Notes: generated by a model not told the origin, from the letters alone. A DNA stretch of 32,000 nucleotides from Gemmata obscuriglobus (GCF_008065095.1 NZ_CP042911.1:1410001-1442000); one strand, 5' to 3'; shown: positions 4,043 through 25,947, counted from the stretch's first letter. Numbers and translations: made by a program.

Positions 4043-4798
4043 ATGAAACTCACTCCCCGGCAGCAGCGGTTCGTGCAGGAGTACCTCGTGGACCGGAGCC
4101 CGTCGGGGGCGGCGGTGCGGGCCGGGTACAGCACGCACTCGGCGCGGAAGATCGGCGAGCAGAACCTGAAGAAGCCGCCGATCGCCGCGGCCATCGCGGC
4201 GGCCACCGGGTGCGCCAAGCCGCCCGAGCGGCCCGCCCTCACCCCGGACGCCGTGCTCCAGCGGCTGTGGCTCATCGCCACCGCCGACCCGAACGAGATC
4301 ATCGAGCACCGCCGCACCTGCTGCCGGTACTGCCACGGGGACGGGCACCGCTACCACTGGACCCAGAGCGAGCTGGACGCCGCCCGCGCCGCCCACGCCG
4401 AAGGCAAGAAGGCCGACGAGCCGTTCGACCCGCTGGGCGGCCCCGGGTACGACCCGCGCCGCCCCCCGGCCCCCAAGTGCCCCGAGTGCTTCGGGGACGG
4501 GGTGGGGGCGGTGTACGTGAAGGACACGCGGCGACTGTCCCCGGGCGCCCGCGCGCTGTGGGCCGGGGTGAAGCAGACCAAGGACGGGGTGGAAGCCCGG
4601 CTCAACGACCAGCAGGCCGCCCTGGTCACCGTGGCCCGGCACCTGGGTATGTTCACGGACGCCGGCGCGGCCAAAGACACGGACCTGCCCGACCTGTCGG
4701 GGATCACCGCCGATGAACTCGACCGACTGCTCGCTGCCCTGCGGCCCCTCTTCGCTCCGCCGCCTGTGGGGGGCGGCGGAACGGGCGGGCGCCCGTGA
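4043..4798 (+). CDS. terS: Terminase small subunit (Terminase_2/P27-like)
   Basis: The N-terminus MKLTPRQQRFVQEYLVDRSPSGAAVRAGYSTHSARKIGEQNLKKPPIAAAI is the canonical small-terminase HTH signature. The gene sits directly upstream of, and overlaps, the large subunit. Confidence 0.85.
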   Translation: MKLTPRQQRFVQEYLVDRSPSGAAVRAGYSTHSARKIGEQNLKKPPIAAAIAAATGCAKPPERPALTPDAVLQRLWLIATADPNEIIEHRRTCCRYCHGDGHRYHWTQSELDAARAAHAEGKKADEPFDPLGGPGYDPRRPPAPKCPECFGDGVGAVYVKDTRRLSPGARALWAGVKQTKDGVEARLNDQQAALVTVARHLGMFTDAGAAKDTDLPDLSGITADELDRLLAALRPLFAPPPVGGGGTGGRP

Positions 4799-6248
4799 CC
4801 TCACCCCGGGCGCGTGGAACGCCCGGTTCCTGCCGCACTACTTCGGCCGGTTCCCGCCCGCGGACTTCCACGCCCTGTTCGACCGCGAGCTGCACAACCT
4901 GCACCTCACCCGCGGGGTGAAGCGGTCCGACATCGCCCCCCGGGGCGGGGCCAAAAGTACGTGGAAGACCCTGGCGTACCCGCTCCGGTGCGCCGCCGAG
5001 GGGTGGGAGCCGTACACCCTGATCCTGTCCGACTCCAGCGACCAGGCCGACCTGCACCTGCGCCACATCCGCAAGGAGCTGGAAGAGAACGAGGTGCTGG
5101 CCGCGGCGTACCCGGAGGCGACCGGGCCGGGGCCGGAGTGGAAGCAGTCGCGCATCCGGCTGCGGAACGGGTCGCTGGTGGAAGCTCTGGGGAGCGGCAA
5201 AAAGGTGCGCGGCCGGCGGAACCGGAGTGAGCGCCCGAGTTTGATCATTTTCGACGACATTCAGAGCAACGAGGACGTGACCAGTCCGGTCATGCGCCGC
5301 CGCGCGTGGGAGTGGGCGACGCGCGAGGTGATCCCGGCGGGGAACGAGCGAACCAACTTCCTGGCGGTGGGCAGCGCGCTGCACCGGGAAGCGGTGGCGG
5401 TGCGGCTGGGGCAGCTCCCGGGGTGGTCCGGGCGGGTCCACCGGGCGGTGCATGCGTGGCCGGAACGGGCCGATTTGTGGGCGGATTTCGAGCGGATCGC
5501 CTCGAACATGGCGGACGACGGGCGGGAGGCGACGGCGCGGGCGTTCTACGCCGAGCACCGCGCGGAGATGGACCGGGGCGGGGTGGTGTACTGGCCGGAC
5601 CGCTTCCCACTCGTTGACCTGATGCTGGTACGCGCGGCGGTGGGCGGCAGCGCCTTCGAGAGCGAGTACCAGGGCGTACCGGGCACGCTGGAGGGGGCCG
5701 AGTGGCCGCCCGAGTGCTTCGACCGGCCGGACCTGTGGTTCACGGACTGGCCGTCGGATTTGGTGGTGCGGCTGCAAAGCCTGGACCCGTCGAAGGGTGT
5801 GAGCGACAAGGCGGACTACCAGGCGCACGTGAAGCTGGGGCTGTCGCGGTTCGGGCTGCTGTACGTGGACGCGGAGCTGCGTCGGGAGCCGGGCTGGGTG
5901 GAGCGGGCGATCGACATCGCGGCGGAGTGGCGGCCGGTGGAACTGGTGGCGGAGGCGAACAACACGATGGGGCTGCTGCGGCCGGCGGCGGAGCGGGTGC
6001 TGCGGGAGCGGCGGGAGCAGGGGCGGGTGCTGTCGTTCGTGTACACGGAGAAGATCAACAGCGCGCCGAAGGCGATCCGCATCCGGGCGCTGAACGACTA
6101 CCTGCGCCGCGGTCAGATCCGGGTGCGCGGCACCCCGGGCGGTCGGGTGCTGGTGGAGCAGCTCCGGGACTGGCCCAACGGCGACCACGACGACGGCCCG
6201 GACGCGCTGGCCACCGCCGTGATCCGCTTGCAGGAACTGGTGGCGTAA
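4713..6248 (+). CDS. terL: Terminase large subunit (ATPase plus RNaseH-like nuclease)
   Basis: Walker A-like PRGGAKSTW and Walker B LIIFDDIQ. C-terminal nuclease pattern LQSLDPSKG..DKADYQA, ELVAEANN, KAIRIRAL, WPNGDHDDGPDALATAV. The start is taken as ATG 4713 (86-nt overlap with terS). No better in-frame ATG/GTG lies before the conserved FHALFDREL, so the start is uncertain. Confidence 0.85.
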   Translation: MNSTDCSLPCGPSSLRRLWGAAERAGARDLTPGAWNARFLPHYFGRFPPADFHALFDRELHNLHLTRGVKRSDIAPRGGAKSTWKTLAYPLRCAAEGWEPYTLILSDSSDQADLHLRHIRKELEENEVLAAAYPEATGPGPEWKQSRIRLRNGSLVEALGSGKKVRGRRNRSERPSLIIFDDIQSNEDVTSPVMRRRAWEWATREVIPAGNERTNFLAVGSALHREAVAVRLGQLPGWSGRVHRAVHAWPERADLWADFERIASNMADDGREATARAFYAEHRAEMDRGGVVYWPDRFPLVDLMLVRAAVGGSAFESEYQGVPGTLEGAEWPPECFDRPDLWFTDWPSDLVVRLQSLDPSKGVSDKADYQAHVKLGLSRFGLLYVDAELRREPGWVERAIDIAAEWRPVELVAEANNTMGLLRPAAERVLRERREQGRVLSFVYTEKINSAPKAIRIRALNDYLRRGQIRVRGTPGGRVLVEQLRDWPNGDHDDGPDALATAVIRLQELVA

Positions 6249-6377
6249 GTGGGGGCGCATCACCTCGGGAACGAACGCGCCCGCCCTGGAACCGCGCACA
6301 CGCGCCGTGTACGTTTGCAGGAACACTTGAAGACGCGAGCCGCCGGACCGACCCGGAACGACTGGAGCGGAACTGCC

Positions 6378-7100
6378 GTGACCGTGGAAGAAGCCGCCCT
6401 CCTTCGCGCCATCGCCGCCGCGCCCGGCGACGTCACGGCCCGGCTCGCGTATGCGGACTGGCTCGACGAGCACGGCCGCGGCATCGAAGCCGCCTGGGTG
6501 CGCGACGAGGGCACGGCCCCGCCGTGGGTGACCGACCTTGCTGGCGAGGGTGACGGTCCTGGCCACAACGCCGGCAACGGTGGGGGCGGCGGCTACGGTG
6601 CCGGCGAGGGCGGTGGCCACGGCGGTGGCGACGGCCGCGGTGAGGGCGACGGCCGCGGTGAGGGCGATGGCGAGGGCGAAGGCGAGGGACACGGCTGCGG
6701 CCTCGGCCCCTACGGTGGGGGGGGCGGCAACGGTGCTGGCTACGGCAACGGCCGCGACTACGGCAACGGCGGCTACGGAACCCCAGACAAGCCCCACATT
6801 ACACACGAGGAAGTTTCCATGCCTTCACCCGGTGCGTATGTGATCGTGCGTTCGCGGGATCAGGGTTGCGTGTGCGGTGAGTACCGGGGTCACCACGGTC
6901 GGGAGGTGGTGCTGGGGAAGGCGCGTCAGATCTATTCGTGGGAGGGCGGTCGTCTGACGCTGTTCGACTTCGCGGTGGTGCCGGGGCCGTGCCGGCTGTC
7001 GCGCGAGGCGCCGGGCGAGGTGGTGATGCTGGAGGCGTGCGGCATCATCCCGACGACGCCCGAGGTCGAGGCGTTCCTGCGCGCGCACCCGGGCGAGTGA
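6378..7100 (+). CDS. TIGR02996-type N-domain / Gly-Asp-rich variable core / conserved C-domain protein (paralog P1)
   Basis: GTG 6378 gives VTVEEAALLRAIAAAPGDVTARLAYADWLDEHGRGIEAAWVRDEG, aligned with the MTDPDEAALLRAI starts of the paralogs. The C-terminal 93 aa (MPSPGAYVIVRSRDQGCVCGEYRGHHGREVVLGKARQIYSWEGGRLTLFDFAVVPG..EACGIIPTTPEVEAFLRAHPGE) are almost identical in P1-P5. Confidence 0.8.
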   Translation: MTVEEAALLRAIAAAPGDVTARLAYADWLDEHGRGIEAAWVRDEGTAPPWVTDLAGEGDGPGHNAGNGGGGGYGAGEGGGHGGGDGRGEGDGRGEGDGEGEGEGHGCGLGPYGGGGGNGAGYGNGRDYGNGGYGTPDKPHITHEEVSMPSPGAYVIVRSRDQGCVCGEYRGHHGREVVLGKARQIYSWEGGRLTLFDFAVVPGPCRLSREAPGEVVMLEACGIIPTTPEVEAFLRAHPGE

Positions 7101-7105
7101 CACCC

Positions 7106-7816
7106 ATGACCGACCCCGACGAAGCCGCGCTGCTCCGCGCCATCGCCGCCGTGCCGGGCGATGTGACGGGGCGGCTCGCGTATGCGGACTGGCTCGACGA
7201 GCACGGGCGCGGGATCGAAGCCGCCTGGGTGCGCGACGAGGGCTTACCCCCGCCCGGCGTGACCGAACTTGCTGGCGACGGTGAAGGCGCTGGTGCGGGT
7301 GACGGCGGCGGCGATGGTGACAACGACCGGGGTCACAACGACGACCTCAACAACGGCCACGGCGATGGCACCGGCAGCGGTGAAAGCCGCGGCGGTTTCG
7401 GCTACTGCGACATCGACGGCACCGGTAGCGGCTTGGAAAGCGGTTACGCCCGCGGCTATGGGAACGGCGGTGGCTACGGCCACGGCGGCTACGGAACCCC
7501 AAACAAGCCCCACATTACACACGAGGAGGTTCCCATGCCGTTGCCGGGTGCGTATGTGATCGTGCGTTCGCGTGACCAGGGTTGCGTGTGCGGCGAGTAC
7601 CGGGGTCACCACGGGCGGGAGGTGGTGCTGGGGAAGGCGCGTCAGATTTATTCGTGGGAGGGCGGTCGGCTGACGCTGTTCGACTTCGCGGTGGTGCCGG
7701 GTGCGTGCCGGCTGTCGCGGGAGGCGCCGGGGGAGGTGGTGATGCTGGAGGCGTGCGGGATCATCCCCACCACGCCCGAGGTCGAGGCGTTCCTGCGGGC
7801 ACACCCGGGCGAGTGA
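7106..7816 (+). CDS. TIGR02996-type N-domain / variable core / conserved C-domain protein (paralog P2)
   Basis: ATG 7106 lies 5 nt after the P1 stop. Same N- and C-terminal blocks. The core (GDGEGAGAGDGGGDGDNDRGH..GFGYCDI.GTGSGLE.GYARGYGNGGGYGHGGYG) is nearly identical to P5. Confidence 0.85.
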   Translation: MTDPDEAALLRAIAAVPGDVTGRLAYADWLDEHGRGIEAAWVRDEGLPPPGVTELAGDGEGAGAGDGGGDGDNDRGHNDDLNNGHGDGTGSGESRGGFGYCDIDGTGSGLESGYARGYGNGGGYGHGGYGTPNKPHITHEEVPMPLPGAYVIVRSRDQGCVCGEYRGHHGREVVLGKARQIYSWEGGRLTLFDFAVVPGACRLSREAPGEVVMLEACGIIPTTPEVEAFLRAHPGE

Positions 7817-7820
7817 GCCC

Positions 7821-8576
7821 ATGACCGACCCCGAAGAGGCCGCCCTCCTTCGCGCCATCGGCGCGGCACCCGGCGAGTTCACGGCGCGGCTCGCGTACGC
7901 GGACTGGCTCGACGAGCACGGCCGCGGCCTCGAAGCCGCCTGGGTGCGCGACGAGGGCACGGCCCCGCCCCGGGTGACCGAACTCGGTGGCAGCGGCCAC
8001 GGCGAGGGCAAAGGCAACGGCGACGGCCAGAGCGACGGCTGCGACTACAGCGACGACGACGACCGTCACGGCGACGACGGCAGCCACGGGGACGGCTACG
8101 GCTACGGCTACGGCGGTCGCAGCTACAGCCACGGCGTCTACGGCCACGGCTACAGCAGCGGCCGCGGCGACGGCCACGGCTACGGCAGCGGCTTAGGCGG
8201 CCGCGGAATCGGCGTAGGCGAAGGGGACGGCGGCCGCGCCGGCCGCATCGCCACACGAAAGCTTCAACACCTGATCCCCCACGAGGAAGTTCCCATGCCG
8301 GTTTCGGGTGCGTATGTGATTGTGCGTTCGCGGGACCAGGGTTGCGTGTGCGGGGAGTACCGGGGCCACCACGGGCGCGAGGTGGTGCTGGGGAAGGCGC
8401 GTCAGATCTTCTCCTGGGAGGGCGGTCGGCTGACGCTATTCGACTTCGCGGTGGTGCCGGGTGCGTGCCGGCTGTCGCGTGAGGCGCCGGGCGAGGTGGT
8501 GATGCTGGAGGCGTGCGGGATCATCCCGACCACGGCTGCGGTGGAAGCGTTCCTGCGGGCGCACCCAGGGGAGTAG
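7821..8576 (+). CDS. TIGR02996-type N-domain / variable core / conserved C-domain protein (paralog P3)
   Basis: ATG 7821 lies 4 nt after the P2 stop. Conserved ends with a different, longer core (GHGEGKGNGDGQSDGCDYSDDDDRHGDDGSHGDGYGYGYGG...). Shares LQHLIPH with P4. Confidence 0.85.
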   Translation: MTDPEEAALLRAIGAAPGEFTARLAYADWLDEHGRGLEAAWVRDEGTAPPRVTELGGSGHGEGKGNGDGQSDGCDYSDDDDRHGDDGSHGDGYGYGYGGRSYSHGVYGHGYSSGRGDGHGYGSGLGGRGIGVGEGDGGRAGRIATRKLQHLIPHEEVPMPVSGAYVIVRSRDQGCVCGEYRGHHGREVVLGKARQIFSWEGGRLTLFDFAVVPGACRLSREAPGEVVMLEACGIIPTTAAVEAFLRAHPGE

Positions 8577-8580
8577 CACC

Positions 8581-8785
8581 ATGACCGACCCCGAAGAGGC
8601 CGCGCTGCTGGCCGCCATCATCGCCGCGCCCGCCGACGACACCCCGCGCCTCGTGTACGCCGACTGGCTCCAGGAGCAGGCCGCGGGATCGAAGCCGCCT
8701 GGGTGCGCGACGAGGGCACGGCCCCGCCCCGGGTGACCGACCTTGCCGGCGACGGTGAAGGCGCTGGCGCGGGCGAAGGGGGAGG
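8581..8785 (+). pseudogene. Chimeric, frameshifted remnant of a TIGR02996-family paralog
   Basis: 8581-8683 is near-identical to the 5' end of the 14657 gene (MTDPEEAALLAAIIAAPADDTPRLVYADWLQEQAA). At GGCCGC it switches, one base short, to the P1-P5-type sequence GGGATCGAAGCCGCCTGGGTGCGCGACGAGGGC...GGCGACGGTGAAGGCGCTGGCGCGGGCGAAGG. The original frame stops at about codon 46, and similarity is lost after ~8785. Confidence 0.75.
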
Positions 8786-8855
8786 GGTGTGTGGCACTGC
8801 GGCGGAAACCGCCCGCCGCCGGTACGGGAGCGCCGGGCGCTCCGGTCGCGCGGGC

Positions 8856-8883
8856 TTGACACGGGAGCGAATTTTACTATGCG
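8856..8883 (+). promoter_or_regulatory. Candidate sigma70-like promoter for the CHAT cassette (TTGACA, 16 nt, TATGCG)
   Basis: This is the only AT-richer patch between the paralog remnant and the first cassette gene. The -35 is perfect and the -10 is weak. Planctomycete promoter rules are poorly known. Confidence 0.2.
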
Positions 8884-8966
8884 GCGGAACCTGACTGCAT
8901 CCGCGGGTGGCGTGCGCTACGCTTGGTACGTTCGCCGTTCACTCCCAACCGTGGCTCGGGGGCAGA

Positions 8967-9302
8967 ATGTCCGACACCGCGCGCGTTGCCGAGCCGCTCA
9001 CGCTGGAACTCGACTTGCCCGGCCCGGCCGACGGGCGGTACGTGGCCCGCGCGGGAGTGCCGTTCGCGTTACGCGTGAGGGGCGACCTCGGTTCCCCGGT
9101 GCCCGCGGAGGTGCTGGTCCTCGGGGCCGGGGTGCGGGCGACGCCGGTGGGCCGCGACGTGCGGCTCCCCGCCGACGCCACCTTCCTTGTGTGCTGCTCG
9201 GCCGCGGGGCCGGCGCACCTACACGTCGAGCTGCTCGTCGGCGGGGAAGAGATGGCCTCCGCCGCGGCGTACCTGTCGGTGCTCCCCGCGCCGGTCGTAT
9301 GA
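8967..9302 (+). CDS. Small beta-rich (Ig/beta-sandwich-like) hypothetical protein, first gene of the CHAT cassette
   Basis: ATG 8967 in frame with track ORF 8907..9302. Alternating beta-strand-like segments (LTLELDL, FALRVRG, AEVLVLGAGVRATP, FLVCCSAAGPAHLHVELLVGG, AAAYLSVLP) resemble the C-terminal domain of the 9957 gene. Confidence 0.55.
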   Translation: MSDTARVAEPLTLELDLPGPADGRYVARAGVPFALRVRGDLGSPVPAEVLVLGAGVRATPVGRDVRLPADATFLVCCSAAGPAHLHVELLVGGEEMASAAAYLSVLPAPVV

Positions 9303-9405
9303 GCGTGCATTCGGCCGACCCTGTCTGGACGCCGGTTGCCAGTTCGACTATCACAAGGGTTTCCAGCCGACCTCTCCGACCGTGCCCTTGTCCGGAGTGA
9401 TCGCA

Positions 9406-9960
9406 ATGCCCATTCGCTCATCGACGGCCCGCGCGCTCCAGCTCGGTGCGGTGATCGCCACCGCGGAGCAGGTGCAGCAAGGTCTGCTTCACGGCCCCGA
9501 CATCACGCTCGGCAGCCGCGCGCGAGCCGCGGCGGGAATCGAAGAGGTCCGCACCCGGCTCCTCGCCGCGGCCCGCGACTTGGACCGGCGGGTGGGTGAG
9601 CGGCTCCGGTCGAGCGTGTCGTGGTGGGTCCAGTTCGTCCTGCTCGTCTTCTTGGTCGCGCTCGGGGTCGGGTTCGTGTTCGCGGCCGTGCGCCTCATGA
9701 CCAGTGAGGACCCGTCGAACTTAACGTACCTGTTCACCGTCGGCCCGCCGCCGCTGGTGGTCTTCCTTCTGAACCAGTTGCGGCGCATGGAGGTCGATCG
9801 GATCACCGTGAGCCTGCTGGCGGCCCGGTTCGTGCCCCGGATCGAGGCGGCCGGGTCGATCGCCGAACTGGAGGCGATCGCGCGCGAAATGTCCGACTCC
9901 TTGCGGCTCCTCACGAACGCGCCGCGCCCGGCCGCCCCGGGGGCAGGACCCCGAACATGA
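9406..9960 (+). CDS. Membrane protein with two predicted TM helices (hypothetical)
   Basis: ATG 9406 is preceded by GGAG (about 9 nt). Hydrophobic stretches WWVQFVLLVFLVALGVGFVFAAV and YLFTVGPPPLVVFLLNQL. The stop overlaps the next start (ATGA at 9957-9960). Confidence 0.6.
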   Translation: MPIRSSTARALQLGAVIATAEQVQQGLLHGPDITLGSRARAAAGIEEVRTRLLAAARDLDRRVGERLRSSVSWWVQFVLLVFLVALGVGFVFAAVRLMTSEDPSNLTYLFTVGPPPLVVFLLNQLRRMEVDRITVSLLAARFVPRIEAAGSIAELEAIAREMSDSLRLLTNAPRPAAPGAGPRT

Positions 9961-11375
9961 GCAAGAAGATCAAGGAGCTGGAGCTGAACAGCCTCCGCAA
10001 GACCTTCCAGGGCGTGCGGGACTTCGTGCTGCTGGAGCCGCTGAAGCTGGACTCCGCGGCCGACTACACGCTTCGCAAGAGCCTTCGCGAGAAGAAGGTT
10101 CGCGTGAAGATGGTCAAGAACAGCTTCGTGCGGAAGGTGTTCAGCGAGAACGGCATGACGGTGGAGACGGGCTCCGGCCCGACCCTTCTGTGCTGGGGGG
10201 CCGACAGCGCGAAGTCCCTCGGGACCGCGGTGGAGGCGGCTCTCAAGCTGATCCGCCCGGACCTGAAGGTGCCCGAGAAGGTCAAAGAGAAGGTCGGCAT
10301 CGCCGACGGCGAGACCATGACCCTGGCGCAGCTCGCCAAGGTGCCGACCAAGCAAGAGGCGATCGGCGAAGTCCTCGCCGCGGTGCTCGCGCCGGGCGCC
10401 GCGCTGGCCGGGGCGCTCACGGCGCCGGGTGCGGACCTCGCGGGCATCCTCAAGGCGGTCCAGGGCGTGCGGGCGCAGAGGACCCCCGCGGCCGTCGCGG
10501 TGGGGGCGACGGATTCGGCGTGGGCGAGTGAACCCGCCCCTTCTGTGCCGGGTCCGTTCGTGCGGCCGGCGGCCGGCGCGGGCGCCCGGTTGCCCTTGCC
10601 TTCTGTGCCGCGGCCGCCGAACAATGGTGTAGAGCCAGGGGCCGCTCCGGTCCGCTCTTCGGTTCGGAACGCGGAACCGGACCCGGAGGTCGCGCTGCGA
10701 GCGCTGGAGCGGTGGCTGCCGCTGTTGCACGGGATCGGCGCCGGACGGGCGCCGGAGCGCGTGCGCACGATCTGGGGCGAGCACGTCCGGAACGAGCTGT
10801 TCCGCAGCCCCCCGGCGGTCGCCTGGCTCGATCAGTGCTTGGCCGCCCGGCCGTCATTTGCACCTCAGAGGGCCGCGGCACTCGAGGCGCTGCGGCGGGT
10901 GCGGGCCGAGGTGCGGGACGAGTTGACCGGGTTGGGCGAACAACTCGCCCCTCAAGCGGAGGGAACATCGCCCCCCAACGGGGGAAGCGAAATGGATCAG
11001 TTCATCCTGGTTCTGGAGATCGGCGCGCGGGACGGCGGACCCTTGACCGTGGGGCACGAAGCGACCCTGCGGGCGGTGGTCGCGAAAGCTGACGTGGCGA
11101 ACACGGAAGATCACTACAACGGCCACTACAACTGGGTGCCGGCGGGGCCCGGGGAGGTGGTGGCGGTGCGGGTGTTCGCGACCGGCAGCCGGGTGCTCCC
11201 GGCCGAGCGGTACCTCTCGACGCCCCCGCAACCGGGCCAGTCCGTCGAGTTCACGTTCCGGCCCCGGGCCGCCGGCCGGCAGTACCTGCACCTGGCCCTC
11301 GTGGACCGGCACGACTCCGACGTGTACACGGCGTCCCAATACTTCACCGTCGAGCCGGCCGCCGCTGTCGGCTGA
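9957..11375 (+). CDS. Ribosomal protein uL10-like N-domain fused to a Pro/Ala-rich linker, a helical segment and a C-terminal beta-sandwich-like domain
   Basis: Residues 1-~170 follow uL10 by eye: VLLEPLKLDSAADYTLRKSLREKKVRVKMVKNSFVRKVF, GPTLLCWG, LAKVPTKQEAIGEVLAAVLAPGAALAGAL. No rplK/A/L or rpoB neighbours. The C-terminal 128 aa (from MDQFILVLEIG, nt 10992) are beta-rich. Confidence 0.7.
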   Translation: MSKKIKELELNSLRKTFQGVRDFVLLEPLKLDSAADYTLRKSLREKKVRVKMVKNSFVRKVFSENGMTVETGSGPTLLCWGADSAKSLGTAVEAALKLIRPDLKVPEKVKEKVGIADGETMTLAQLAKVPTKQEAIGEVLAAVLAPGAALAGALTAPGADLAGILKAVQGVRAQRTPAAVAVGATDSAWASEPAPSVPGPFVRPAAGAGARLPLPSVPRPPNNGVEPGAAPVRSSVRNAEPDPEVALRALERWLPLLHGIGAGRAPERVRTIWGEHVRNELFRSPPAVAWLDQCLAARPSFAPQRAAALEALRRVRAEVRDELTGLGEQLAPQAEGTSPPNGGSEMDQFILVLEIGARDGGPLTVGHEATLRAVVAKADVANTEDHYNGHYNWVPAGPGEVVAVRVFATGSRVLPAERYLSTPPQPGQSVEFTFRPRAAGRQYLHLALVDRHDSDVYTASQYFTVEPAAAVG

Positions 11376-11441
11376 GCCCGGCGCCGCGCGCCGCGAACGC
11401 GCGGCCTCGGCGCCCGCCACCCTTTCGGTCACGCCACCGTC

Positions 11442-12962
11442 ATGCTCCGCGCCCCCACGACCGCCGTTCTGTCGCCCCCCCCCCAGGAGCGGTCGCTCCG
11501 GGTGGATCTGTTCTACCGCGATCCGAGCGCCCCGAGCGCCTACGTGGTGCTCAACGTGCCGCTGGACCCGACGTACGGGACGGCGCACCGCGAGTACCTG
11601 GACCGGCACCGGTACGACACCTCGGACGGGAGCCCACCAACGGCCCTGTTCGAGGGCGTCGTCGACGGCTCGTTTGCGACCTTCCGGGACCTGATCCGCG
11701 CGGCACTGGACGCGCACGTGGAGGCCGCCCACCGCCGCGACCCGGCGCTGTACGCGCTGTACGATCCGGCCCTGCCGAGGGCCGGGGACCGGGAGCTGGG
11801 CGCGTTCTTGCGCCCGCTCGCGGTTCACGGGTACGAGATGTACCGGAACCTGTTCGAGCGGCTCGTCGGGGACCTGCGGGCGCCGAGCGACCTCCCGCCC
11901 GAGGAGCGGCCCGACTGGGACCAGACCGAGGCGCACGCGCTGGTCCGCGAGTACCTGGCGAGCGCCTCTCCCAAAGTGGTGTTCAAGGTGCCGCAAGAGG
12001 ACCGGGCGGACCCCGTCAACCGGCCGCACCTGCCGCCGCCGGCGGACCACTGGACCGAACCGTTCCCGTGGCGGCTCCTGTTCGACCGGCACCCCGACAA
12101 GTTGCCCGCCGCGCCCGACCTGTTCGGCCGGCGCCCCGACGAACTGCCCTCCGCGCCCGAGCTGGCGGCGGCGTGCTGGGGCCTGAAGTACCAGCTCGAG
12201 ACCGCCTTCAAGTGGACCCAGGGGCAGTCGACCCTGCGGGCGTTCGAGAATCGGCCGCCCCGGATCGTCGCGGCCACGTGCCCGTCGGCCGATCCGGCCG
12301 ATCGGCACCGCGATCGGGGCCACCCGTTCCAGCGGCCTGGGGTGGACACGACCCACCACGACCAACGGGACGACTTCCGCGCCGCCCTCCGCCACGTCGA
12401 CGCGGACGCGGTATCGTTCTTCGGCCACGCGGAGGTCGCACGGGCGAACGTGCAGACCGGCAGCTCGATCGAGTTCCGGCCCCCCCGGTCCGGCCCCGCG
12501 GACTGGGAGCAACTGACGGCCGCCGACATGGACGGGGCGAGGATCCCGAAGTACCAGCGCAAGCCGGTGCTGGTGTTCCTCAACGGGTGCGGGACCGGTC
12601 CGCTGGACGGGTTAGGACCGACGACCGTCTTCGGGCAGTTCACCAACAATGGGCCGGTCCGGGGGCACCGGGTGCGGTGCGTGGCGGTCGTCCACGAGGC
12701 GCCCATCACATTCGGGCTCGAACTGGGCCAGGAGTTCTGGAAGCAGGTGCTCCCCGCCGCACCGGGGGCGGGCGGGGAACCGGTGGGGGCGGCTCTGCTG
12801 GCCGCGCGGCAGCACATGGTCCGGGCGTACAACAACCCGCTCGGGGTGCTGTACGCGCTGTTCGGCGACGGCCTGTTGCGGTACCACCCGGGCGCGCCGT
12901 CACACGGGGCCATCGGGTCCGGCGGCCCGCCGGCGGGGCCGAGCGCCACGGCCGGCGCGTAG
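11442..12962 (+). CDS. CHAT-domain caspase-like cysteine protease
   Basis: His/Cys dyad context VSFFGHAEV ... (about 55 aa) ... KPVLVFLNGCGTGP, and the C-terminal NPLGVLYALFGDGLLRY typical of CHAT domain ends. Good third-position GC bias. Confidence 0.7.
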   Translation: MLRAPTTAVLSPPPQERSLRVDLFYRDPSAPSAYVVLNVPLDPTYGTAHREYLDRHRYDTSDGSPPTALFEGVVDGSFATFRDLIRAALDAHVEAAHRRDPALYALYDPALPRAGDRELGAFLRPLAVHGYEMYRNLFERLVGDLRAPSDLPPEERPDWDQTEAHALVREYLASASPKVVFKVPQEDRADPVNRPHLPPPADHWTEPFPWRLLFDRHPDKLPAAPDLFGRRPDELPSAPELAAACWGLKYQLETAFKWTQGQSTLRAFENRPPRIVAATCPSADPADRHRDRGHPFQRPGVDTTHHDQRDDFRAALRHVDADAVSFFGHAEVARANVQTGSSIEFRPPRSGPADWEQLTAADMDGARIPKYQRKPVLVFLNGCGTGPLDGLGPTTVFGQFTNNGPVRGHRVRCVAVVHEAPITFGLELGQEFWKQVLPAAPGAGGEPVGAALLAARQHMVRAYNNPLGVLYALFGDGLLRYHPGAPSHGAIGSGGPPAGPSATAGA

Positions 12963-13135
12963 CACCTCTGCACCACTGATCCGTGGGACACATCGTAGGG
13001 TCTTGGGCTGCCGGATCGCTCCTCATTTACGGGTACGACGCTGGTACACGAGACGGTGCTCGCCCGCGCGCGTGATCCCGGGCTCGTCGAGCGGCGCGCC
13101 GCCGGCACGTGGCGCCTGGAACCATCGGGGCGAGT

Positions 13136-13939
13136 ATGACCACCGACGAGGCCGCGCTGCTTCGCGCCATCGCCGCGCACCCGGGCGAGGTCACCGCGCG
13201 GCTCGCGTATGCGGACTGGCTCGACGAGCACGGCCGCGGGATCGAAGCCGCCTGGGTACGCGACGAGGGCACGGCCCCGTGGGTGACCGAACTCGGCGGC
13301 GGCGATGGTGACGGTGGCTGCGACGCCGACGGCACCGGCACCGGCGATGACCACGGCAGCGGTAACGGCGATGGTGACGGCGACGGCTACGGTGACAGCA
13401 ACGGCGACGGCTACGGCGACGGTACGAACTGCGGCGACGGCGCCGGCCGCGGTGACGGCCGCGGCTACGGCGCCGGCGGCGGGGGCAGCGAAATCCACGA
13501 CTACAGCATCCGCGGCGGCAACCACGGCTACGGCCGCGGCTACGGTTACTGCTACGGCGACAGCGACGGCGACGGCGACGGCAACGGTCAAGGCCACGGC
13601 TACAACCCCATCGCCGCGCACAATCTGCAACACCTGATCCCCCACCAGGAGGTTCACATGCCGGAGTCGGGTGCGTACGTGATCGTGCGTTCGCGGGATC
13701 AGGGTTGCGTGTGCGGTGAGTACCGGGGGCACCACGGCCGTGAGGTGGTGCTGGGGAAGGCGCGCCAGATCTACTCGTGGGAGGGCGGTCGGCTGACGCT
13801 GTTCGACTTCGCGGTGGTGCCGGGTCCGTGCCGGCTGTCGCGTGAGGCGCCCGGGGAGGTGGTGATGCTGGAGGCGTGCGGGATCATCCCGACCACGCCC
13901 GAGGTCGAGGCGTTCCTGCGGGCGCACCCGGGCGAGTGA
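13136..13939 (+). CDS. TIGR02996-type N-domain / variable core / conserved C-domain protein (paralog P4)
   Basis: ATG 13136 (MTTDEAALLRAIAAHPGEVTARLAYADWLDEHGRGIEAAWVRDEG). Longest core (GDGDGGCDADGTGTGDDHGSGNGDGDGDGYGDSNGDGYGDG...). Conserved C-terminal 93 aa. Confidence 0.85.
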   Translation: MTTDEAALLRAIAAHPGEVTARLAYADWLDEHGRGIEAAWVRDEGTAPWVTELGGGDGDGGCDADGTGTGDDHGSGNGDGDGDGYGDSNGDGYGDGTNCGDGAGRGDGRGYGAGGGGSEIHDYSIRGGNHGYGRGYGYCYGDSDGDGDGNGQGHGYNPIAAHNLQHLIPHQEVHMPESGAYVIVRSRDQGCVCGEYRGHHGREVVLGKARQIYSWEGGRLTLFDFAVVPGPCRLSREAPGEVVMLEACGIIPTTPEVEAFLRAHPGE

Positions 13940-13944
13940 CACCC

Positions 13945-14652
13945 ATGACCGACCCCGACGAAGCCACGCTGCTTCGCGCCATCGGCGCCTACCCGGGCGA
14001 GGTGACGGCCCGGCTCGCGTATGCGGACTGGCTCGACGAGCACGGCCGCGGCCTCGAAGCCGCCTGGGTGCGCGACGAGGGCACGGCCCCGCCGTGGGTG
14101 ACCGACCTTGCCGGTGACGGTGAAGGCGCTGGTGCGGGTGACGGCGGCGGCGATGGTGACAATGACCGCGGCCACGGCGACCTCAACAACGGCCCCGGCG
14201 ACGGCGCCGGCAGCGGTGAAGGCCGCGGCGGTTTCGGCTACTGCGACATCGCCGGCACCGGTAGCGGCTTGGAAGGCGGTTACGCCCGCGGCTACGGGAA
14301 CGGCGGGGGCTACGGCCACGGCGGCTACGGAACCCCAAACAAGCCCCACATTACACACGAGGAGTTTCCCATGCCTTCACCCGGTACGTATGTGATCGTG
14401 CGTTCGCGGGATCAGGGCTGCGTGTGCGGTGAGTACCGGGGTCACCACGGGCGGGAAGTGGTGCTGGGGAAGGCGCGTCAGATCTACTCGTGGGAGGGCG
14501 GTCGTCTGACGCTGTTCGACTTCGCGGTGGTGCCGGGGCCGTGCCGCCTCTCCCGTGAGGCGCCGGGGGAGGTGGTGATGCTGGAGGCGTGCGGGATCAT
14601 CCCGACGACGCCCGAGGTGGAAGCGTTCCTGCGAGCGCACCCGGGCGAGTAG
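13945..14652 (+). CDS. TIGR02996-type N-domain / variable core / conserved C-domain protein (paralog P5, near-twin of P2)
   Basis: ATG 13945 lies 5 nt after the P4 stop. Core and ends are nearly identical to P2. Confidence 0.85.
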   Translation: MTDPDEATLLRAIGAYPGEVTARLAYADWLDEHGRGLEAAWVRDEGTAPPWVTDLAGDGEGAGAGDGGGDGDNDRGHGDLNNGPGDGAGSGEGRGGFGYCDIAGTGSGLEGGYARGYGNGGGYGHGGYGTPNKPHITHEEFPMPSPGTYVIVRSRDQGCVCGEYRGHHGREVVLGKARQIYSWEGGRLTLFDFAVVPGPCRLSREAPGEVVMLEACGIIPTTPEVEAFLRAHPGE

Positions 14653-14656
14653 CACC

Positions 14657-15442
14657 ATGACGGACCCCGACGAGGCCGCGCTGCTGGCCGCCATCATCGC
14701 CGCGCCCGCCGACGACACCCCGCGCCTCGTGTACGCCGACTGGCTCCAGGAGCAGGCCGCCGACGCCACCTGCGGCGAGTGCGACGCCGGCCGCGTGTTC
14801 GGCCGCGACGTGCAGTCGCTCCGGCCCGCCGGGGCGTGGCACACCTGCCGCCGGTGCGGCGGGTCCGGCCGCCTCACCGACGGCCGCGCGGGCCGGGCCG
14901 AGTTCATTCGCGTGCAGTGCGAACTCGCGGCGCTGAACGACCGGCACCGCCGCGGCGACGCGACCCCCGCGGACGCCGAGCGGCTGGAGGCGCTCCGGCG
15001 GCGCGAGGGGCAACTGACCATGACCGTCTACCCGCGCGAGATCTGGCCCACCTTCGACTGGCTCCGCGGGCTCGGCATCAACCCCTACAACTGTGTGCTC
15101 GATTCCCGCGGCGGCTGGATCGCGGCGGTCACCTGCGACGCCGCGACCTGGATCGCCCACGGGGACGCGATCCGCGCCCGGCACCCGGTCACCGCCGTGC
15201 GGCTGACGACGGTGCCGGAGGTCGGTTGGGTGCCGCCGGCGCACGGGCGCGACGGCTACTTCGCGTTCGCCCGCGACCCGGCCGCCCGGCGCATCACCTG
15301 GGCCGAGTACCGGGCCGGCTGCGCGGCGCACGCCCCGCCCGGCGAGCCGGACCCGAGCGCCTCCGAATACAACCCGGATGTGGGCGTCCTGCTGGCGTGC
15401 CGGTTCGGAGACGGTGTCGATTTCGAAGTCCCGTTGCACTGA
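14657..15442 (+). CDS. Canonical TIGR02996 repeat-companion domain protein with CxxC..CxxCxGxG zinc-ribbon-like segment (P6)
   Basis: MTDPDEAALLAAIIAAPADDTPRLVYADWLQEQ ... RAEFIRVQCELAAL is the full TIGR02996-type signature as I remember it. CGECDAG and CRRCGGSGRL motifs lie between. ATG is 4 nt after the P5 stop. Confidence 0.8.
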   Translation: MTDPDEAALLAAIIAAPADDTPRLVYADWLQEQAADATCGECDAGRVFGRDVQSLRPAGAWHTCRRCGGSGRLTDGRAGRAEFIRVQCELAALNDRHRRGDATPADAERLEALRRREGQLTMTVYPREIWPTFDWLRGLGINPYNCVLDSRGGWIAAVTCDAATWIAHGDAIRARHPVTAVRLTTVPEVGWVPPAHGRDGYFAFARDPAARRITWAEYRAGCAAHAPPGEPDPSASEYNPDVGVLLACRFGDGVDFEVPLH

Positions 15443-15550: not shown

Positions 15551-15793
15551 AAAGCGGCGGTATTACCGGGTGCGTGTGTGAGGCGGCGTGTGCCGGGCGC
15601 GGGGCACCGTATGCGTGCGTAGTAGCAACAGAATGCCGCGCTCGCGAAGACCGCCGGAAAAATGTTTTGCGGCGAAGACTGCGGTGCGAATGACTTTCAG
15701 CTACAATTTTCGCGGCACCGTGGTTATCCCAACGCCCGGTGCGCCTCGCGATTCGTGAGGCAGGAGGAAACGCGTGGCTGGCGGAGGTGGCCG

Positions 15794-16153
15794 ATGAAAC
15801 AGATTACCGCCCGAACACCACTCCGAATTGTGTTTTACCGTGACAAGGCCGACCGCAGTGTCGTTGTTGCCCACTGTCTGGAGTTCGATCTGCTCGGCTT
15901 CGGTGACACCAAGCACGAAGCCATGAACATGTTGTGCGAGGCGATCGAACTTCAGGTCAGCAGCGCGGTCAAGGAACAATCGCCGAACGTCCTTTTCACG
16001 CCCGCACCGAGCGAATACTACGTCATGTTTGCGAAGGGCAAGGACGTGGCGATCGGCGAAATGGCGATCGAATTCGAGGCGCCGGACTACAAGATCGAAG
16101 GCGTGAGCGCCCGCGAGTACGAGGACGAGGACGCCGAGTGCGCGACGGCCTGA
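15794..16153 (+). CDS. hicB: HicB-like antitoxin (UPF0150 fold)
   Basis: ATG 15794 with GGAGG 6 nt upstream. VVVAHCLEFDLLGFGDTKHEAMNMLCEAIELQV matches the HicB N-domain pattern (..a.cpel.g..s.G.T.eEA..n..eAi.l). Directly upstream of a HicA-like ORF. GC is lower than the surroundings. Confidence 0.6.
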   Translation: MKQITARTPLRIVFYRDKADRSVVVAHCLEFDLLGFGDTKHEAMNMLCEAIELQVSSAVKEQSPNVLFTPAPSEYYVMFAKGKDVAIGEMAIEFEAPDYKIEGVSAREYEDEDAECATA

Positions 16154-16168
16154 TGCGAGGAGTCGCCC

Positions 16169-16417
16169 GTGGACCGTCCGCTCTCATTGCGTCAACTCAG
16201 ACGAGCCTTGTTCGCTTTTGGGGTGTTTGAGGATACCGGCCGGGGAAAGGGCTCTCATACGATGTTCTATAAGTACATCGATGGTCACAAGGTGAGCTTC
16301 CCGGTCCCGACGAGCCACGACACTCTTCCCACCGCTTACGCCCGGGCGGCTCGCCGAAAGTTCAAGCTGACCGCCGAAGACGGAGTTACTGACCAGCAGT
16401 TCTACGACAACACCTGA
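16169..16417 (+). CDS. hicA: HicA-like mRNA interferase toxin
   Basis: LRQLRRALFAFGVFEDTGRGKGSHTMFYK...VSFPVPTSHDTLPTAYARAARRKFKL follows the HicA/YcfA pattern (l...Gf...r.kGSH..f......tvP.H..l). GTG start with GAGGAG upstream. Confidence 0.75.
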   Translation: MDRPLSLRQLRRALFAFGVFEDTGRGKGSHTMFYKYIDGHKVSFPVPTSHDTLPTAYARAARRKFKLTAEDGVTDQQFYDNT

Positions 16418-21413: not shown

Positions 21414-21571
21414 CCGAGCTGAACGTCGCGCATAAGAGACGTGCCCACGCCCCTCGGGGTGCGGTCGTTTGCAGCAACGTTAAGGCTCCAGGCGTGGCAC
21501 GGGTTGTTTCAGTCTGGTGGCCTCAACGGCCACGACGTGGTGGCCGGGTGGAAGCGAACCGGGGACGAGCG

Positions 21572-21850
21572 ATGCGCGGGAACAGCGTGGCAAAATTGTG
21601 GAGCGAGATGAGCGACGAGGAGCGGGTCGCGTGGTACGAACGGTTCGGGGAGTCGTCCACACCCGAAGAGGTAGCCGCTCTGGCTCGTGGTATCCTCCAG
21701 AACCCTGAGACGCTGGCTGAGGCCCGTCGGTTGCTGGCGGAGTACGACGCTACGCAGGGTGCTTCGAACCCGGAGACCGAAGCACCGAAACCGGTTGAGG
21801 TGCCCGGTCCGCCACCGCCCGCGAAGACGAAGAAAAGGCGCAAGAGGTAA
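21572..21850 (+). CDS. Small hypothetical protein with a basic C-terminal tail (KTKKRRKR)
   Basis: ATG 21572 within track ORF 21494..21850. First gene of the lower-GC island. No recognisable motif. Confidence 0.45.
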   Translation: MRGNSVAKLWSEMSDEERVAWYERFGESSTPEEVAALARGILQNPETLAEARRLLAEYDATQGASNPETEAPKPVEVPGPPPPAKTKKRRKR

Positions 21851-21947
21851 CCTGTTAGCCGCTTCACCGCGCTTCGCATGTCGTGAGCATTGCCGGAAAA
21901 TCGATGGTGCTAAACTGCTGTCAGGCCATGGGTTACGCAAACAGCAC

Positions 21948-22026
21948 TGGACAAGGGGGGCTTGACTCTCCTATAATTTCATGGGCTCTCTACGGGCATT
22001 GAAAAATTCATCTGCCAATTTATATT
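21948..22026 (+). promoter_or_regulatory. AT-rich region with two sigma70-like promoter candidates upstream of the three-gene operon
   Basis: TGGACA (21948), 18 nt, TATAAT (21972); and TTGAAA (21999), 16 nt, TATATT (22021). This is the most AT-rich stretch of the window, 85-160 nt upstream of ATG 22111. Confidence 0.35.
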
Positions 22027-22110
22027 GGATGTCTTTTCCCTGAATTACGGTGCGCCCCACAATTCAGAGAAAAACGAACGCTACGGCGGCGGGACCGCAA
22101 GGCAAATGAT

Positions 22111-24150: not shown

Positions 24151-24297
24151 TGTGACAAGGGACAGAGGTGCATGCAAATTCATCCTCTAGTCGAACCGCT
24201 AAGCAATCCTCAAGGCTCAAGAAACTGCAAAAGAAACGCAATATCGGCCAACTCTGACAAGCACTTCTCCCCGGCCGGCCGGTGACATCGGCCGGGG

Positions 24298-25401: not shown

Positions 25402-25947
25402 CAGGTGGGCCGGTCGGCTTCCGATGGGGCACCGACGGGACATTCGCTGCCGATCGACTGCCGGTTCGCTGGTCGGGTGCTGGGCGGTCGCTACCCACGA
25501 ATCACGCCCCCAAAGCCCCCCCAATGCGGCAGGAGACGAGCGGGTGCGCTATCGGTGATGGTCGAGTTCTGTGTCGTAACGCTTTGATGCTTTTGTGCTT
25601 ATAGCGATTGCGATCCGTGCGGACCGCTTCGCTTCCCGGACGGCAATCACGCGCCAGAATCCCTCCGGTGTGGGCAGAGACGAGGTTCGAGCTGCCAGAA
25701 CTACCACACAGGGAAAAAGTAGTTGGGAAATGACCGGCGCACCGGTGGGCAGCAGTTTCGCAGGTAGGGGCGTAAGATTCGCGCCTGCCATGAGTGTCGG
25801 GCAAATATTAAGCGGGAGCAAGGAGCGTGTAACTTGTTCTCTCCACACAAATTCCGTTTTGGCTCGGCCTGGGAGTTGCTTTTGCTTATAGCGGCGGACG
25901 GTGCGGCATCCCGCGTAGCCTCCGATCCACAACCGGAAGGTGTCGCA

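What the first reader, a model, noticed from the sequence alone, without database searches (positions are those of the whole stretch)
8856..12962. Four-gene CHAT protease / uL10-like / 2-TM / beta-sandwich cassette embedded in the paralog array: candidate undescribed conflict system
Four same-strand ORFs lie with short gaps: 8967-9302, 9406-9960, 9957-11375 (ATGA overlap with the previous gene) and 11442-12962. They sit exactly where the tandem paralog array is broken. A chimeric remnant lies at 8581-8785 and the array resumes at 13136.

The last gene has a caspase-like CHAT dyad context: VSFFGHAEV, then about 55 aa later PVLVFLNGCGTGP, and a C-terminal NPLGVLYALFGDG.

Its partners are not the CHAT partners I know of (TPR/STAND, gasdermin, type III CRISPR). 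They are a two-TM protein, a ribosomal uL10-like fusion protein and a small beta-rich protein.

A protease, a membrane protein and a look-alike of a translation component together fit the logic of an abortive-infection or conflict module. The cassette is carried as cargo between terL and portal of a phage-like element. I am not aware of a described system with this composition.
Basis: partly seen in the sequence, partly recalled or inferred. Interest (0 to 1): 0.85.

Follow-up and report, generated by a model that had tools for sequence, protein, structure and literature searches.

The report
Prophage CHAT-like protease module with captured uL10
A Gemmata obscuriglobus prophage carries a divergent member of an uncharacterised caspase-like (CHAT) protease operon family, and its partner protein has recently acquired an almost complete copy of the host's ribosomal stalk protein uL10, which hints at a link between a protease-based conflict system and the ribosome.

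Summary
Four same-strand, strongly coding ORFs (8967-9302, 9406-9960, 9957-11375, 11442-12962) fill a 4.35-kb break (8786-13136) in a paralog array between terL and portal.

- **Gene D** gives no Pfam CHAT hit. Its family profile, an AlphaFold model (pLDDT 84) and Foldseek (Csx29, SAVED-CHAT, separase) still show a CHAT/separase-type cysteine protease with an aligned, invariant His329/Cys383.
- **The D family** (58 representatives, one per 50%-identity cluster, at E<1e-30) lies in a conserved operon: partner protein (variable N-terminus, helical region, beta domain), then the CHAT-like protease, then usually a metallophosphoesterase. PADLOC does not name it.
- **Gene C** is that partner. Its C-terminal half is homologous to the partners. 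Its first 169 residues are 94% identical to the host's own rplJ product, so this is a recent lineage-specific gene capture.
- **Gene A** is a free copy of the beta domain.
- **Gene B** (a membrane protein) and the uL10 moiety are unique to Gemmata, and the phosphoesterase is missing.

Best reading: a prophage-borne variant of a protease-effector conflict module that is tied to the ribosomal stalk. Function is inferred, and only one genome carries the cassette. A new variant of a known kind; interest moderate to high.

The parts
8581..8785 (+). Truncated paralog remnant (TIGR02996-type N-terminus). It marks the left edge of the break in the array.
   Evidence: ORF 8581-8736 translates to MTDPEEAALL...LVYADWLQEQ. 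BLASTN homology to the array ends at 8785.
8967..9302 (+). Gene A, 111 aa: a stand-alone copy of the partner beta domain.
   Evidence: 31% identical to the C-terminal domain of C. An HMM built only from foreign partner beta domains ranks it second of 328 six-frame ORFs in the window (E 7.3e-5; next hit 0.4). No Pfam, PHROG, NCBIfam or PADLOC hit. GC3 0.90-0.94.
9406..9960 (+). Gene B, 184 aa: a membrane protein with one strong TM helix (residues 73-97) and a weaker hydrophobic segment (105-123). Its stop codon overlaps the start of C (ATGA).
   Evidence: Hydropathy scan. ATGA overlap. No family hit in four libraries. No counterpart in any related locus.
9957..10456 (+). Gene C, rplJ-derived part (residues 1 to about 167): all the structured parts of host uL10.
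   Evidence: Pfam PF00466 8.8e-9 and NCBIfam PRK00099 1.9e-22 (79.9 bits, cut-off 85) over residues 6-169. 94% identical (159/169) to the host's RplJ, P0158. 87% nucleotide identity to G. algarum rplJ, beginning exactly at the ATG.
10457..10661 (+). Gene C, Pro/Ala/Gly-rich linker (residues about 168-235).
   Evidence: Atypical codon-position GC (GC2 0.64-0.70, GC3 0.78-0.86). No homology to partner proteins.
10662..11375 (+). Gene C, partner module: a helical region (residues about 236-340) followed by the beta domain (residues about 345-472).
   Evidence: BLASTP against upstream partners of D-like genes: L043 38% over 68 aa (E 9.5e-8); L045 29% over 182 aa (E 7e-6); the fusion protein P0030 (E 5.7e-5). 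Foreign-only HMM gives E 9.5e-8 and is the top hit in the window. hhalign probability 88.6%.
11442..12962 (+). Gene D, 506 aa: a divergent CHAT/separase-type clan CD cysteine protease. His329 is at 12426-12428 and Cys383 at 12588-12590.
   Evidence: His329 and Cys383 are invariant in the 50-sequence family alignment. hhalign to a canonical CHAT domain: probability 92.9%, E 3.6e-7, with the dyad aligned. AlphaFold2 pLDDT 84.3, pTM 0.87. Foldseek top hits are Csx29, SAVED-CHAT, separase and gingipain.
12077..12160 (+). Tandem 42-nt duplication inside D. It encodes a low-confidence surface loop.
   Evidence: Repeat family D2, 86% identity. pLDDT below 50 at residues 222-230.
13136..13939 (+). First complete paralog after the cassette. 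It marks the right edge of the break.
   Evidence: Array homology resumes at about 13137. ORF 13109-13939 contains an ATG at 13136.

Best explanation
The cassette is a prophage-borne, remodelled member of a conserved but uncharacterised operon family built around a CHAT-like cysteine protease.

**Anatomy (shown).**
- The family core is a partner protein (variable N-terminal module, helical region, about 120-aa beta domain) encoded immediately upstream of, or fused to, the protease. A metallophosphoesterase usually follows.
- In Gemmata, gene D is the protease and the C-terminal half of C is the partner.
- The partner's N-terminal slot holds SIR2 NADase domains, weakly receiver-like domains or nothing in other loci. 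Here it holds a recent copy of host rplJ.
- A is a free duplicate of the beta domain.
- A membrane protein (B) is translationally coupled to C.
- The phosphoesterase is absent.

**Mechanism (inferred).**
- C binds D through its helical and beta module and keeps it latent, or is its substrate, as in other protease-effector modules.
- The uL10 moiety retains the whole rRNA-binding domain and the L7/L12-binding helix with only conservative changes. It would therefore tie the complex to L7/L12 dimers or the ribosomal stalk base.
- On an unknown infection trigger, the protease either releases a competing uL10 fragment or acts at the translation-factor binding site.
- B may act as a second, membrane-directed effector.
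- The outcome would be shutdown of translation, giving abortive infection or superinfection exclusion that benefits the prophage.
- A may act as a competitor or regulator for the beta-domain binding site.
For: **D is a CHAT-type protease.**
- An exhaustive profile search found 2317 relatives at E<=1e-3. The distant ones carry significant Pfam CHAT hits on the same region.
- The dyad is invariant and aligns with the CHAT dyad. Structure and fold search agree.

**The operon is conserved.**
- Every D-like gene with upstream sequence (L001, L002, L040-L043, L045, L048) has a beta-domain partner directly upstream. P0030 (L044) fuses the two.
- A phosphoesterase lies downstream in 9 of 10 foreign loci.

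**C belongs to the partner family**.

**The N-terminal slot is variable.** It holds SIR2_2, with weak similarity to the SIR2 domains of ThsA, LmuA and Argonaute-associated proteins. It also holds receiver-like domains next to a kinase gene.

**rplJ was captured recently.** C is 94% identical to the host protein and shares seven G. obscuriglobus-specific residues relative to G. algarum. C has 6-8 unique, conservative changes; the host protein has 0-2.

**Conflict-system context.** Neighbouring genes include an integrase, a transposase and an EAD1-trypsin gene, and one D homolog carries EAD1 itself.

**Precedent.** Protease-effector modules in which a protease cleaves a latent effector are established experimentally for other effectors, and MPE is listed among protease-associated domains (PMC12642450).
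Against: - No experiment and no expression data are available.
- The exact cassette exists in one genome only, so selection on the fusion cannot be shown.
- The otherwise near-constant phosphoesterase is missing.
- D is the most divergent family member. It departs at 3 of about 20 nearly invariant positions, by my own inspection of the motif lists. It also carries low-complexity insertions.
- The linker of C has poor codon statistics.
- The cassette lies in a recombination-prone paralog array. All these points fit a decaying or accidental chimera.
- uL10 is not an enzyme, whereas SIR2 in the same slot is. The slot also holds receiver-like domains, so it is unclear whether it is an input or an output.
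- Homology of A to the beta domain is modest (17 bits).
Confidence: 0.45

Rival explanations
1. Integrated decoy. The uL10 moiety is bait rather than a targeting or effector part. A superinfecting phage factor that binds, cleaves or modifies the ribosomal stalk protein would also hit the copy on C. That event would release or activate the CHAT-like protease, which then acts through B or through broad proteolysis.
For: The N-terminal slot of the partner also carries receiver-like, input-type domains next to a kinase gene. The copy stays very close to the host protein (94%, conservative changes only), as a decoy should. The minimal partners in L043 and L045 have no N-terminal module, so that module is an add-on.
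Against: SIR2, an effector-type domain, sits in the same slot. I found no report of a phage factor that targets uL10. Only a single occurrence is known.
Confidence: 0.2
2. Evolutionary debris. A partner/CHAT-like operon landed in a recombinogenic paralog array of a decaying prophage, lost its phosphoesterase and acquired an rplJ fragment by illegitimate recombination. The long ORFs persist only because the events are recent, and the cassette has no function.
For: The phosphoesterase is absent. A truncated paralog lies at the left edge. D contains a tandem duplication and low-complexity insertions. The linker has atypical codon statistics. There is short microhomology at the fusion breakpoint. 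The copy has changed faster than the host rplJ product. The cassette is a singleton.
Against: Four ORFs totalling 1273 codons remain open with GC3 0.85-0.93. The catalytic dyad and most family motifs of D are intact. All uL10 substitutions are conservative. The B-C start/stop overlap suggests an organised operon.
Confidence: 0.22
3. Phage takeover of translation. C is a prophage-encoded alternative uL10 that is built into ribosomes, as proposed for phage-encoded bL12 and bS21, and alters translation in favour of the element. D, A and B are accessory or unrelated morons.
For: Phage-encoded stalk protein bL12 domains, often embedded in larger polypeptides, are documented (bioRxiv 10.1101/174177). 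C keeps all the structured parts of uL10. NCBI names it '50S ribosomal protein L10'.
Against: The C-terminal half of C is homologous to the obligate partner of D-like proteases, so C and D are linked. No GenBank phage record encodes a uL10 relative at E<=1e-3. The bona fide rplJ product exists elsewhere in the host.
Confidence: 0.08

Closest known systems
CHAT-domain proteases of prokaryotic immune systems (Csx29/TPR-CHAT of type III-E CRISPR, SAVED-CHAT of type III-B) and eukaryotic separase
   Same: Caspase-fold clan CD protease with a His-Cys dyad. Foldseek gives E 5.6e-7 to 1e-5 to 7zoq_A, 8tl0 and 9hms. hhalign to a canonical CHAT domain gives probability 92.9% with the dyad aligned. Each of these proteases works with a dedicated partner or substrate encoded nearby (from my own knowledge of Csx30, PCaspase and securin).
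   Different: There is no Pfam CHAT hit for D. No Pfam, NCBIfam or Rfam hit in the window suggests a CRISPR-Cas, SAVED or TPR component. The family has its own motifs (LFPWAFLY, FWGFRH, DCLYFFGHA, FLNGCxT, NPLGLLYxLFG) and a different partner (helical region plus beta domain).
Protease-effector modules of antiviral defence (protease plus MBL hydrolase, alpha/beta hydrolase, Pepco, EACC1, or the uncharacterised MPE class; PMC12642450)
   Same: A caspase-like protease is encoded beside a latent effector. In the D family the downstream gene is a metallophosphoesterase (9 of 10 foreign loci). Variable sensor or effector domains are attached. The modules occur on mobile islands.
   Different: I could not establish whether the MPE class listed in that paper is this family; the cited source, Krishnan et al. 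2020, is not held in the library. The Gemmata cassette lacks the MPE and has a membrane protein and a uL10 fusion instead. The beta-domain partner is not described in the text I could read.
Phage-encoded ribosomal proteins (bS21, bL12 and others; Mizuno et al., bioRxiv 10.1101/174177)
   Same: A mobile element carries a ribosomal stalk-related protein domain, sometimes inside a larger polypeptide.
   Different: That survey does not report uL10, and no GenBank phage has a relative. Here the copy is a very recent capture from the host (94% identity), and it is fused to a protease-system partner.
Bona fide ribosomal protein uL10 (rplJ)
   Same: Residues 1-169 cover model positions 3-164 of the 168-position NCBIfam model. 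They are 94% identical to the host's RplJ.
   Different: C lies outside the rplKAJL-rpoBC cluster, and the host has a separate 183-aa RplJ. C scores just below the equivalog cut-off (79.9 vs 85 bits). It lacks the last 15 or so residues of RplJ and carries a 300-aa unrelated extension.

Membership tests
CHAT domain (Pfam PF12770) | Hit to the family HMM at or above the gathering score | tested here: not met
   No hit for D even at E<=1. The close relatives P0009, P0030 and P0054 score 20-24 bits against a cut-off of 24.
CHAT domain (Pfam PF12770) | Catalytic His and Cys aligned with the CHAT/caspase dyad | tested here: met
   hhalign of the family alignment A3 against a canonical CHAT domain (itself Pfam CHAT 3.4e-31) aligns FFGH(329)A with HFVGHG and FLNGC(383) with VLNAC; probability 92.9%. 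Both residues are invariant in 50 sequences.
CHAT domain (Pfam PF12770) | Caspase/hemoglobinase fold | tested here: met
   AlphaFold2 model with pLDDT 84.3. All 21 Foldseek PDB hits at E<=1e-3 are clan CD peptidases: Csx29, SAVED-CHAT, separase and gingipain.
Partner / CHAT-like / metallophosphoesterase operon (unnamed family defined here) | D-family protease with the motifs LFPWAFLY, FFGHA, FLNGCxT and NPLGLLY | tested here: met
   D scores 548 bits against the family profile, which includes D itself. The motifs are present with minor variants.
Partner / CHAT-like / metallophosphoesterase operon (unnamed family defined here) | Gene immediately upstream ends in the helical region plus beta domain | tested here: met
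   C residues about 236-472 match the partners (E 9.5e-8 with the HMM; E down to 9.5e-8 with BLASTP).
Partner / CHAT-like / metallophosphoesterase operon (unnamed family defined here) | Metallophosphoesterase gene immediately downstream | tested here: not met
   The array resumes 174 nt after D. An MPE HMM finds nothing in the 32-kb window (best E 2.4). L045 also lacks it.
Ribosomal protein uL10 (rplJ) | Sequence membership | tested here: met
   Pfam PF00466 scores 35.8 bits against a cut-off of 22.8. The NCBIfam equivalog model scores 79.9 bits, below its cut-off of 85.
Ribosomal protein uL10 (rplJ) | It is the organism's stalk protein gene, located in the rplKAJL-rpoBC cluster | tested here: not met
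   The window context is terL, paralog array and portal. The host has a separate 183-aa RplJ (WP_010040254.1). Relatives in other species lie in the canonical cluster.
Known anti-phage systems in PADLOC-DB v2 | Any component matches a system model | tested here: not met
   No hits for A-D, nor for the D homologs, MPE proteins or non-SIR2 partners. Only the SIR2 domains give weak hits.
Type III-E Craspase / type III-B SAVED-CHAT | Associated Cas7-11/gRAMP or Cas10 genes, and a TPR or SAVED sensor domain | tested here: not met
   No such Pfam or NCBIfam domains appear in D or in the scanned window genes. No Rfam hit.
Protease-associated MPE module (Krishnan et al. 2020, as cited in PMC12642450) | Same protease and MPE families as described there | not testable with these tools
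   The source paper is not held in the library. Only its citation could be read.

The most novel reading that the evidence does not exclude
A bacterial immune or exclusion module has recruited a copy of an essential ribosomal stalk protein. The copy either acts as an integrated decoy that reports attack on the ribosome, or as a tether that brings a caspase-like protease to the translation-factor binding site. This would be the first ribosomal-protein-based sensor or targeting domain in a prokaryotic defence system. It would also give a first handle on the function of the whole partner/CHAT-like/MPE family.
Probability: 0.25. Interest if true: 0.85.

Novelty: new variant of a known kind. Interest (0 to 1): 0.66.

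Why it matters
Caspase-like proteases with dedicated partners are emerging as a major theme in bacterial immunity. This work adds three things.

- **A gene family.** It delimits a CHAT-like protease family with 58 representatives (one per 50%-identity cluster) at E<1e-30. PADLOC v2 does not name it and Pfam does not detect it. The family has an obligate beta-domain partner, fused to the protease in one case, and a usual metallophosphoesterase.
- **A natural experiment.** In one prophage the partner's swappable N-terminal module has been replaced by the host's own uL10. If the fusion is functional, it links a protease-based conflict system to the ribosomal stalk, the docking site of EF-Tu and EF-G.
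- **Testable consequences.** It suggests direct experiments: C-D binding, L7/L12 binding and dyad mutants.

If the fusion is not functional, it remains a clear, datable example of host gene capture into a defence operon.

Tried and rejected
- **Direct family scans** of A-D against Pfam, NCBIfam, PHROGs and PADLOC gave only the uL10 hits.
- **phmmer of D against PDB sequences** gave nothing meaningful. The family profile against PDB gave only a weak SAVED-CHAT hit (E 0.68).
- **Word-indexed homolog searches** were nearly blind: 3 relatives for D, 2 for C, and nothing new with the 50-sequence profile. The exhaustive profile search was what opened up the family.
- **AlphaFold2 with the 4-sequence alignment** failed (pLDDT 35.7). 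It succeeded only with the 50-sequence alignment.
- **Collection scans.** A 20-sequence subset gave 4 loci. The viral contig scan, GenBank phage tblastn for C and D, and BFVD fold search found no viral relatives.
- **Plasmid tblastn** gave only a distant cyanobacterial CHAT protein with an uninformative context.
- **Host rplJ DNA** could not be retrieved, so dN/dS on the captured copy could not be computed.
- **A second degenerate rplJ copy in the linker** was considered and rejected. The local alignment score only equals the best of 200 shuffles.
- **The beta-domain profile against PDB sequences** gave only chance-level hits.
- **Promoter/terminator, Rfam and tRNA scans** gave nothing that bears on the cassette.
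- **Three papers** (Krishnan 2020, Nicastro 2023, Burroughs & Aravind 2020) were not available.

Full report
**Source and context.** The window comes from Gemmata obscuriglobus. Proteins C and D are 100% identical to NCBI entries on a 9.03-Mb contig. GC content is about 72%. The neighbourhood is a phage-like element:
- a D5/primase-like gene at 29-1732;
- terS at 4043-4798;
- terL at 4713-6248 (phrog_38, 9.9e-77);
- a tandem array of TIGR02996 + DUF6948 paralogs at 6249-8576 and 13109-15442;
- a HicA-like gene at 16169-16417;
- a lambda-type portal gene at 17195-19993;
- tRNA-Arg at 25218-25293.

**Observation.** The four ORFs are present as described, with an ATGA overlap between B and C.
- In this high-GC genome many spurious ORFs exist. 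The four frames nevertheless show the coding signature: GC3 0.85-0.93 and GC2 about 0.5-0.57.
- BLASTN against the array shows that homology stops at 8785, after about 205 nt of a paralog, and restarts at about 13137. The cassette therefore fills a 4.35-kb break.

**Gene D.**
- Pfam CHAT does not hit D at E<=1, and PADLOC, PHROGs and NCBIfam are silent.
- A word-indexed search found only three 411-aa relatives.
- An exhaustive HMMER search with their profile found 2317 proteins at E<=1e-3, 451 at E<=1e-10 and 58 at E<=1e-30. The search library holds one representative per 50%-identity cluster. Most of the top full-length hits are 410-440 aa.
- Distant hits are large multidomain proteins. Their matched region coincides with significant Pfam CHAT hits (E 1e-9 to 5e-6, CHAT positions about 130-270). 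Close relatives score just under the CHAT cut-off.
- In a 50-sequence alignment with 26% mean column identity, His329 and Cys383 are invariant. The family has its own motif set.
- hhalign of this alignment against a canonical CHAT domain gives 92.9% probability (E 3.6e-7, 245 columns). FFGHA aligns with HFVGHG and FLNGC with VLNAC.
- AlphaFold2 with the same alignment gives pLDDT 84.3 and pTM 0.87. With four sequences it failed.
- Foldseek against the PDB returns only clan CD peptidases at E<=1e-3: Csx29/TPR-CHAT, SAVED-CHAT, separases and gingipain.
- D is therefore a divergent CHAT/separase-type cysteine protease.

**The conserved operon.** I examined ten foreign loci from unrelated organisms with about 52% or about 70% GC.
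- Wherever upstream sequence exists, the gene immediately upstream of the D-like gene ends in the same beta-rich domain of about 120 aa. HMM E-values run from 1e-12 to 1e-69.
- In P0030 (L044) this domain is fused directly to the protease.
- A Metallophos-family gene of about 425-445 aa follows in nine of the ten loci.
- The partner's N-terminus varies:
  - two different SIR2_2 domains, with weak similarity to the SIR2 domains of ThsA, LmuA and Argonaute-associated proteins;
  - an unknown 115-aa domain (L002);
  - weakly receiver-like domains preceded by a GAF-HATPase kinase gene (L042, L048);
  - nothing at all in the minimal partners (L043, L045).
- Neighbours include a tyrosine integrase, a transposase, an EAD1-trypsin gene and a 1000-aa CHAT protein. 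One D homolog carries EAD1 itself.
- None of the components other than SIR2 matches PADLOC v2.

**Gene C.**
- Its first 169 residues are a complete uL10 (NCBIfam model positions 3-164 of 168).
- A cluster look-up with the G. algarum RplJ recovered the host's own RplJ (WP_010040254.1, 183 aa). C is 94% identical to it (159/169).
- C shares seven G. obscuriglobus-specific residues relative to G. algarum. It carries 6-8 unique, conservative substitutions, against 0-2 in the host protein.
- DNA homology to G. algarum rplJ (87%) begins exactly at the ATG and ends at codon 167.
- This is therefore a recent, lineage-specific capture of host rplJ. It is not an ancient look-alike.
- A Pro/Ala/Gly linker with poor codon statistics follows.
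- Residues about 236-472 are then homologous to the partner family:
  - BLASTP 38% over 68 aa to L043 (E 9.5e-8) and 29% over 182 aa to L045 (E 7e-6);
  - an HMM built only from foreign beta domains puts C first (E 9.5e-8) and A second (E 7.3e-5) among all 328 six-frame ORFs of the window, with the next hit at 0.4 (an earlier version);
  - hhalign gives 88.6% probability.
- C is thus a complete minimal partner with uL10 attached to its N-terminus.

**Genes A and B.** A is a free paralog of the beta domain, 31% identical to that of C. B has one strong TM helix, a weaker second hydrophobic stretch and no relatives. No phosphoesterase is present anywhere in the window.

**Interpretation.**
- The anatomy is well supported: the cassette is a remodelled member of this operon family, carried by a prophage. 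I put about 0.85 on this.
- The mechanism is inferred by analogy with characterised protease-effector modules, in which a protease cleaves a latent neighbouring effector (PMC12642450). It also draws on Csx29-Csx30 and separase-securin.
- The partner probably binds and regulates the protease, or is cleaved by it.
- The uL10 moiety retains all structured parts. It most plausibly connects the system to L7/L12 or the stalk base, and so to translation shutdown. B is a possible membrane effector that replaces the phosphoesterase.
- The alternatives are an integrated decoy, recent non-functional debris, or a phage-type alternative ribosomal protein.
- The debris reading cannot be dismissed. The cassette is a singleton, lacks the phosphoesterase, sits in a recombinogenic array and shows signs of recent rearrangement.

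**Novelty.**
- CHAT proteases and protease-effector logic are known, and protease-associated MPEs have been flagged computationally. I could not read the source paper to test whether that class is the same family.
- The following features appear new in the sources I could check: the beta-domain partner, the family's distinct motifs, and above all the uL10 capture.
- No phage record or viral contig encodes a relative of C or D. The survey of virus-encoded ribosomal proteins does not list uL10.
- I class this as a new variant of a known kind, with moderately high interest.

Noticed in passing
window 12077-12160: A tandem 42-nt duplication (86% identity) inside the protease gene D. It encodes PDKLPAAPDLFGRR/PDELPSAPEL in a low-confidence loop, which suggests recent slippage or expansion.
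   Followed up: partly
window 10444-10473 vs 9991-10020: At the exact point where rplJ homology ends, 15 nt (CCAGGGCGTGCGGG) repeat codons 17-21 of the same gene. This may be microhomology from the fusion event. The alignment score only equals the best of 200 shuffles.
   Followed up: yes
window 10407-10706: The linker of C has atypical codon-position GC (GC2 0.64-0.70, GC3 0.78-0.86) compared with about 0.5/0.94 in the rest of the cassette. This pattern would fit sequence that was recently non-coding or read in another frame.
   Followed up: no
window 6249-8576 and 13109-15442: Tandem array of TIGR02996 + Gly/Asp-rich + DUF6948 paralogs between terL and portal. One member matches phrog_18306 (unknown function) at 9e-132. 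The last member (14657-15442) keeps only the TIGR02996 N-terminus.
   Followed up: partly
window 15662-16417: A lower-GC pair of small genes. ORF 16169-16417 is weakly HicA-toxin-like (E 0.001), so this may be a toxin-antitoxin pair just upstream of portal.
   Followed up: no
window 21500-24500 and 25218-25293: A low-GC island (53-61% against about 72%) with ORFs that have no family hits (22111-23657). It is followed by a GNAT acetyltransferase gene (24298-24891) and tRNA-Arg(CCT), which may mark the boundary or integration site of the element. Host-like response regulator and bacteriophytochrome kinase genes follow (25834-26403; 28170-30662, minus strand).
   Followed up: no
P0074 (1269 aa): This protein combines a canonical CHAT domain (residues 67-327, Pfam 3.4e-31) with a D-family domain (residues 554-899). 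The D-family domain has lost both catalytic residues (LIYLLAST and LVFLGSSLG), so it is an inactive paralog paired with an active protease.
   Followed up: partly
L042 2065-5885 and L048 2-2117: In two unrelated loci the partner has a weakly receiver-like N-terminus (Pfam Response_reg E 0.1-0.18). It is preceded in L042 by a GAF-HATPase kinase gene and in L048 by a truncated ORF that resembles the C-terminus of that kinase (judged by eye). This suggests phosphorylation input into some members of the system.
   Followed up: partly
L043 5401-6228 and L045 3-890 (beta domains): The partner beta domain gives sub-threshold hits to Pfam DUF7363 (E 0.003-0.044). A large CHAT protein, P0152, also has a weak DUF7363 hit, so the two may be distantly related.
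   Followed up: no
L005 8001-9100: This metagenomic Gemmata-like rplJ locus has frameshifts across rplJ, rplA and rpoB. The '267-aa L10' P0006 is therefore an assembly artefact after residue 129.
   Followed up: yes
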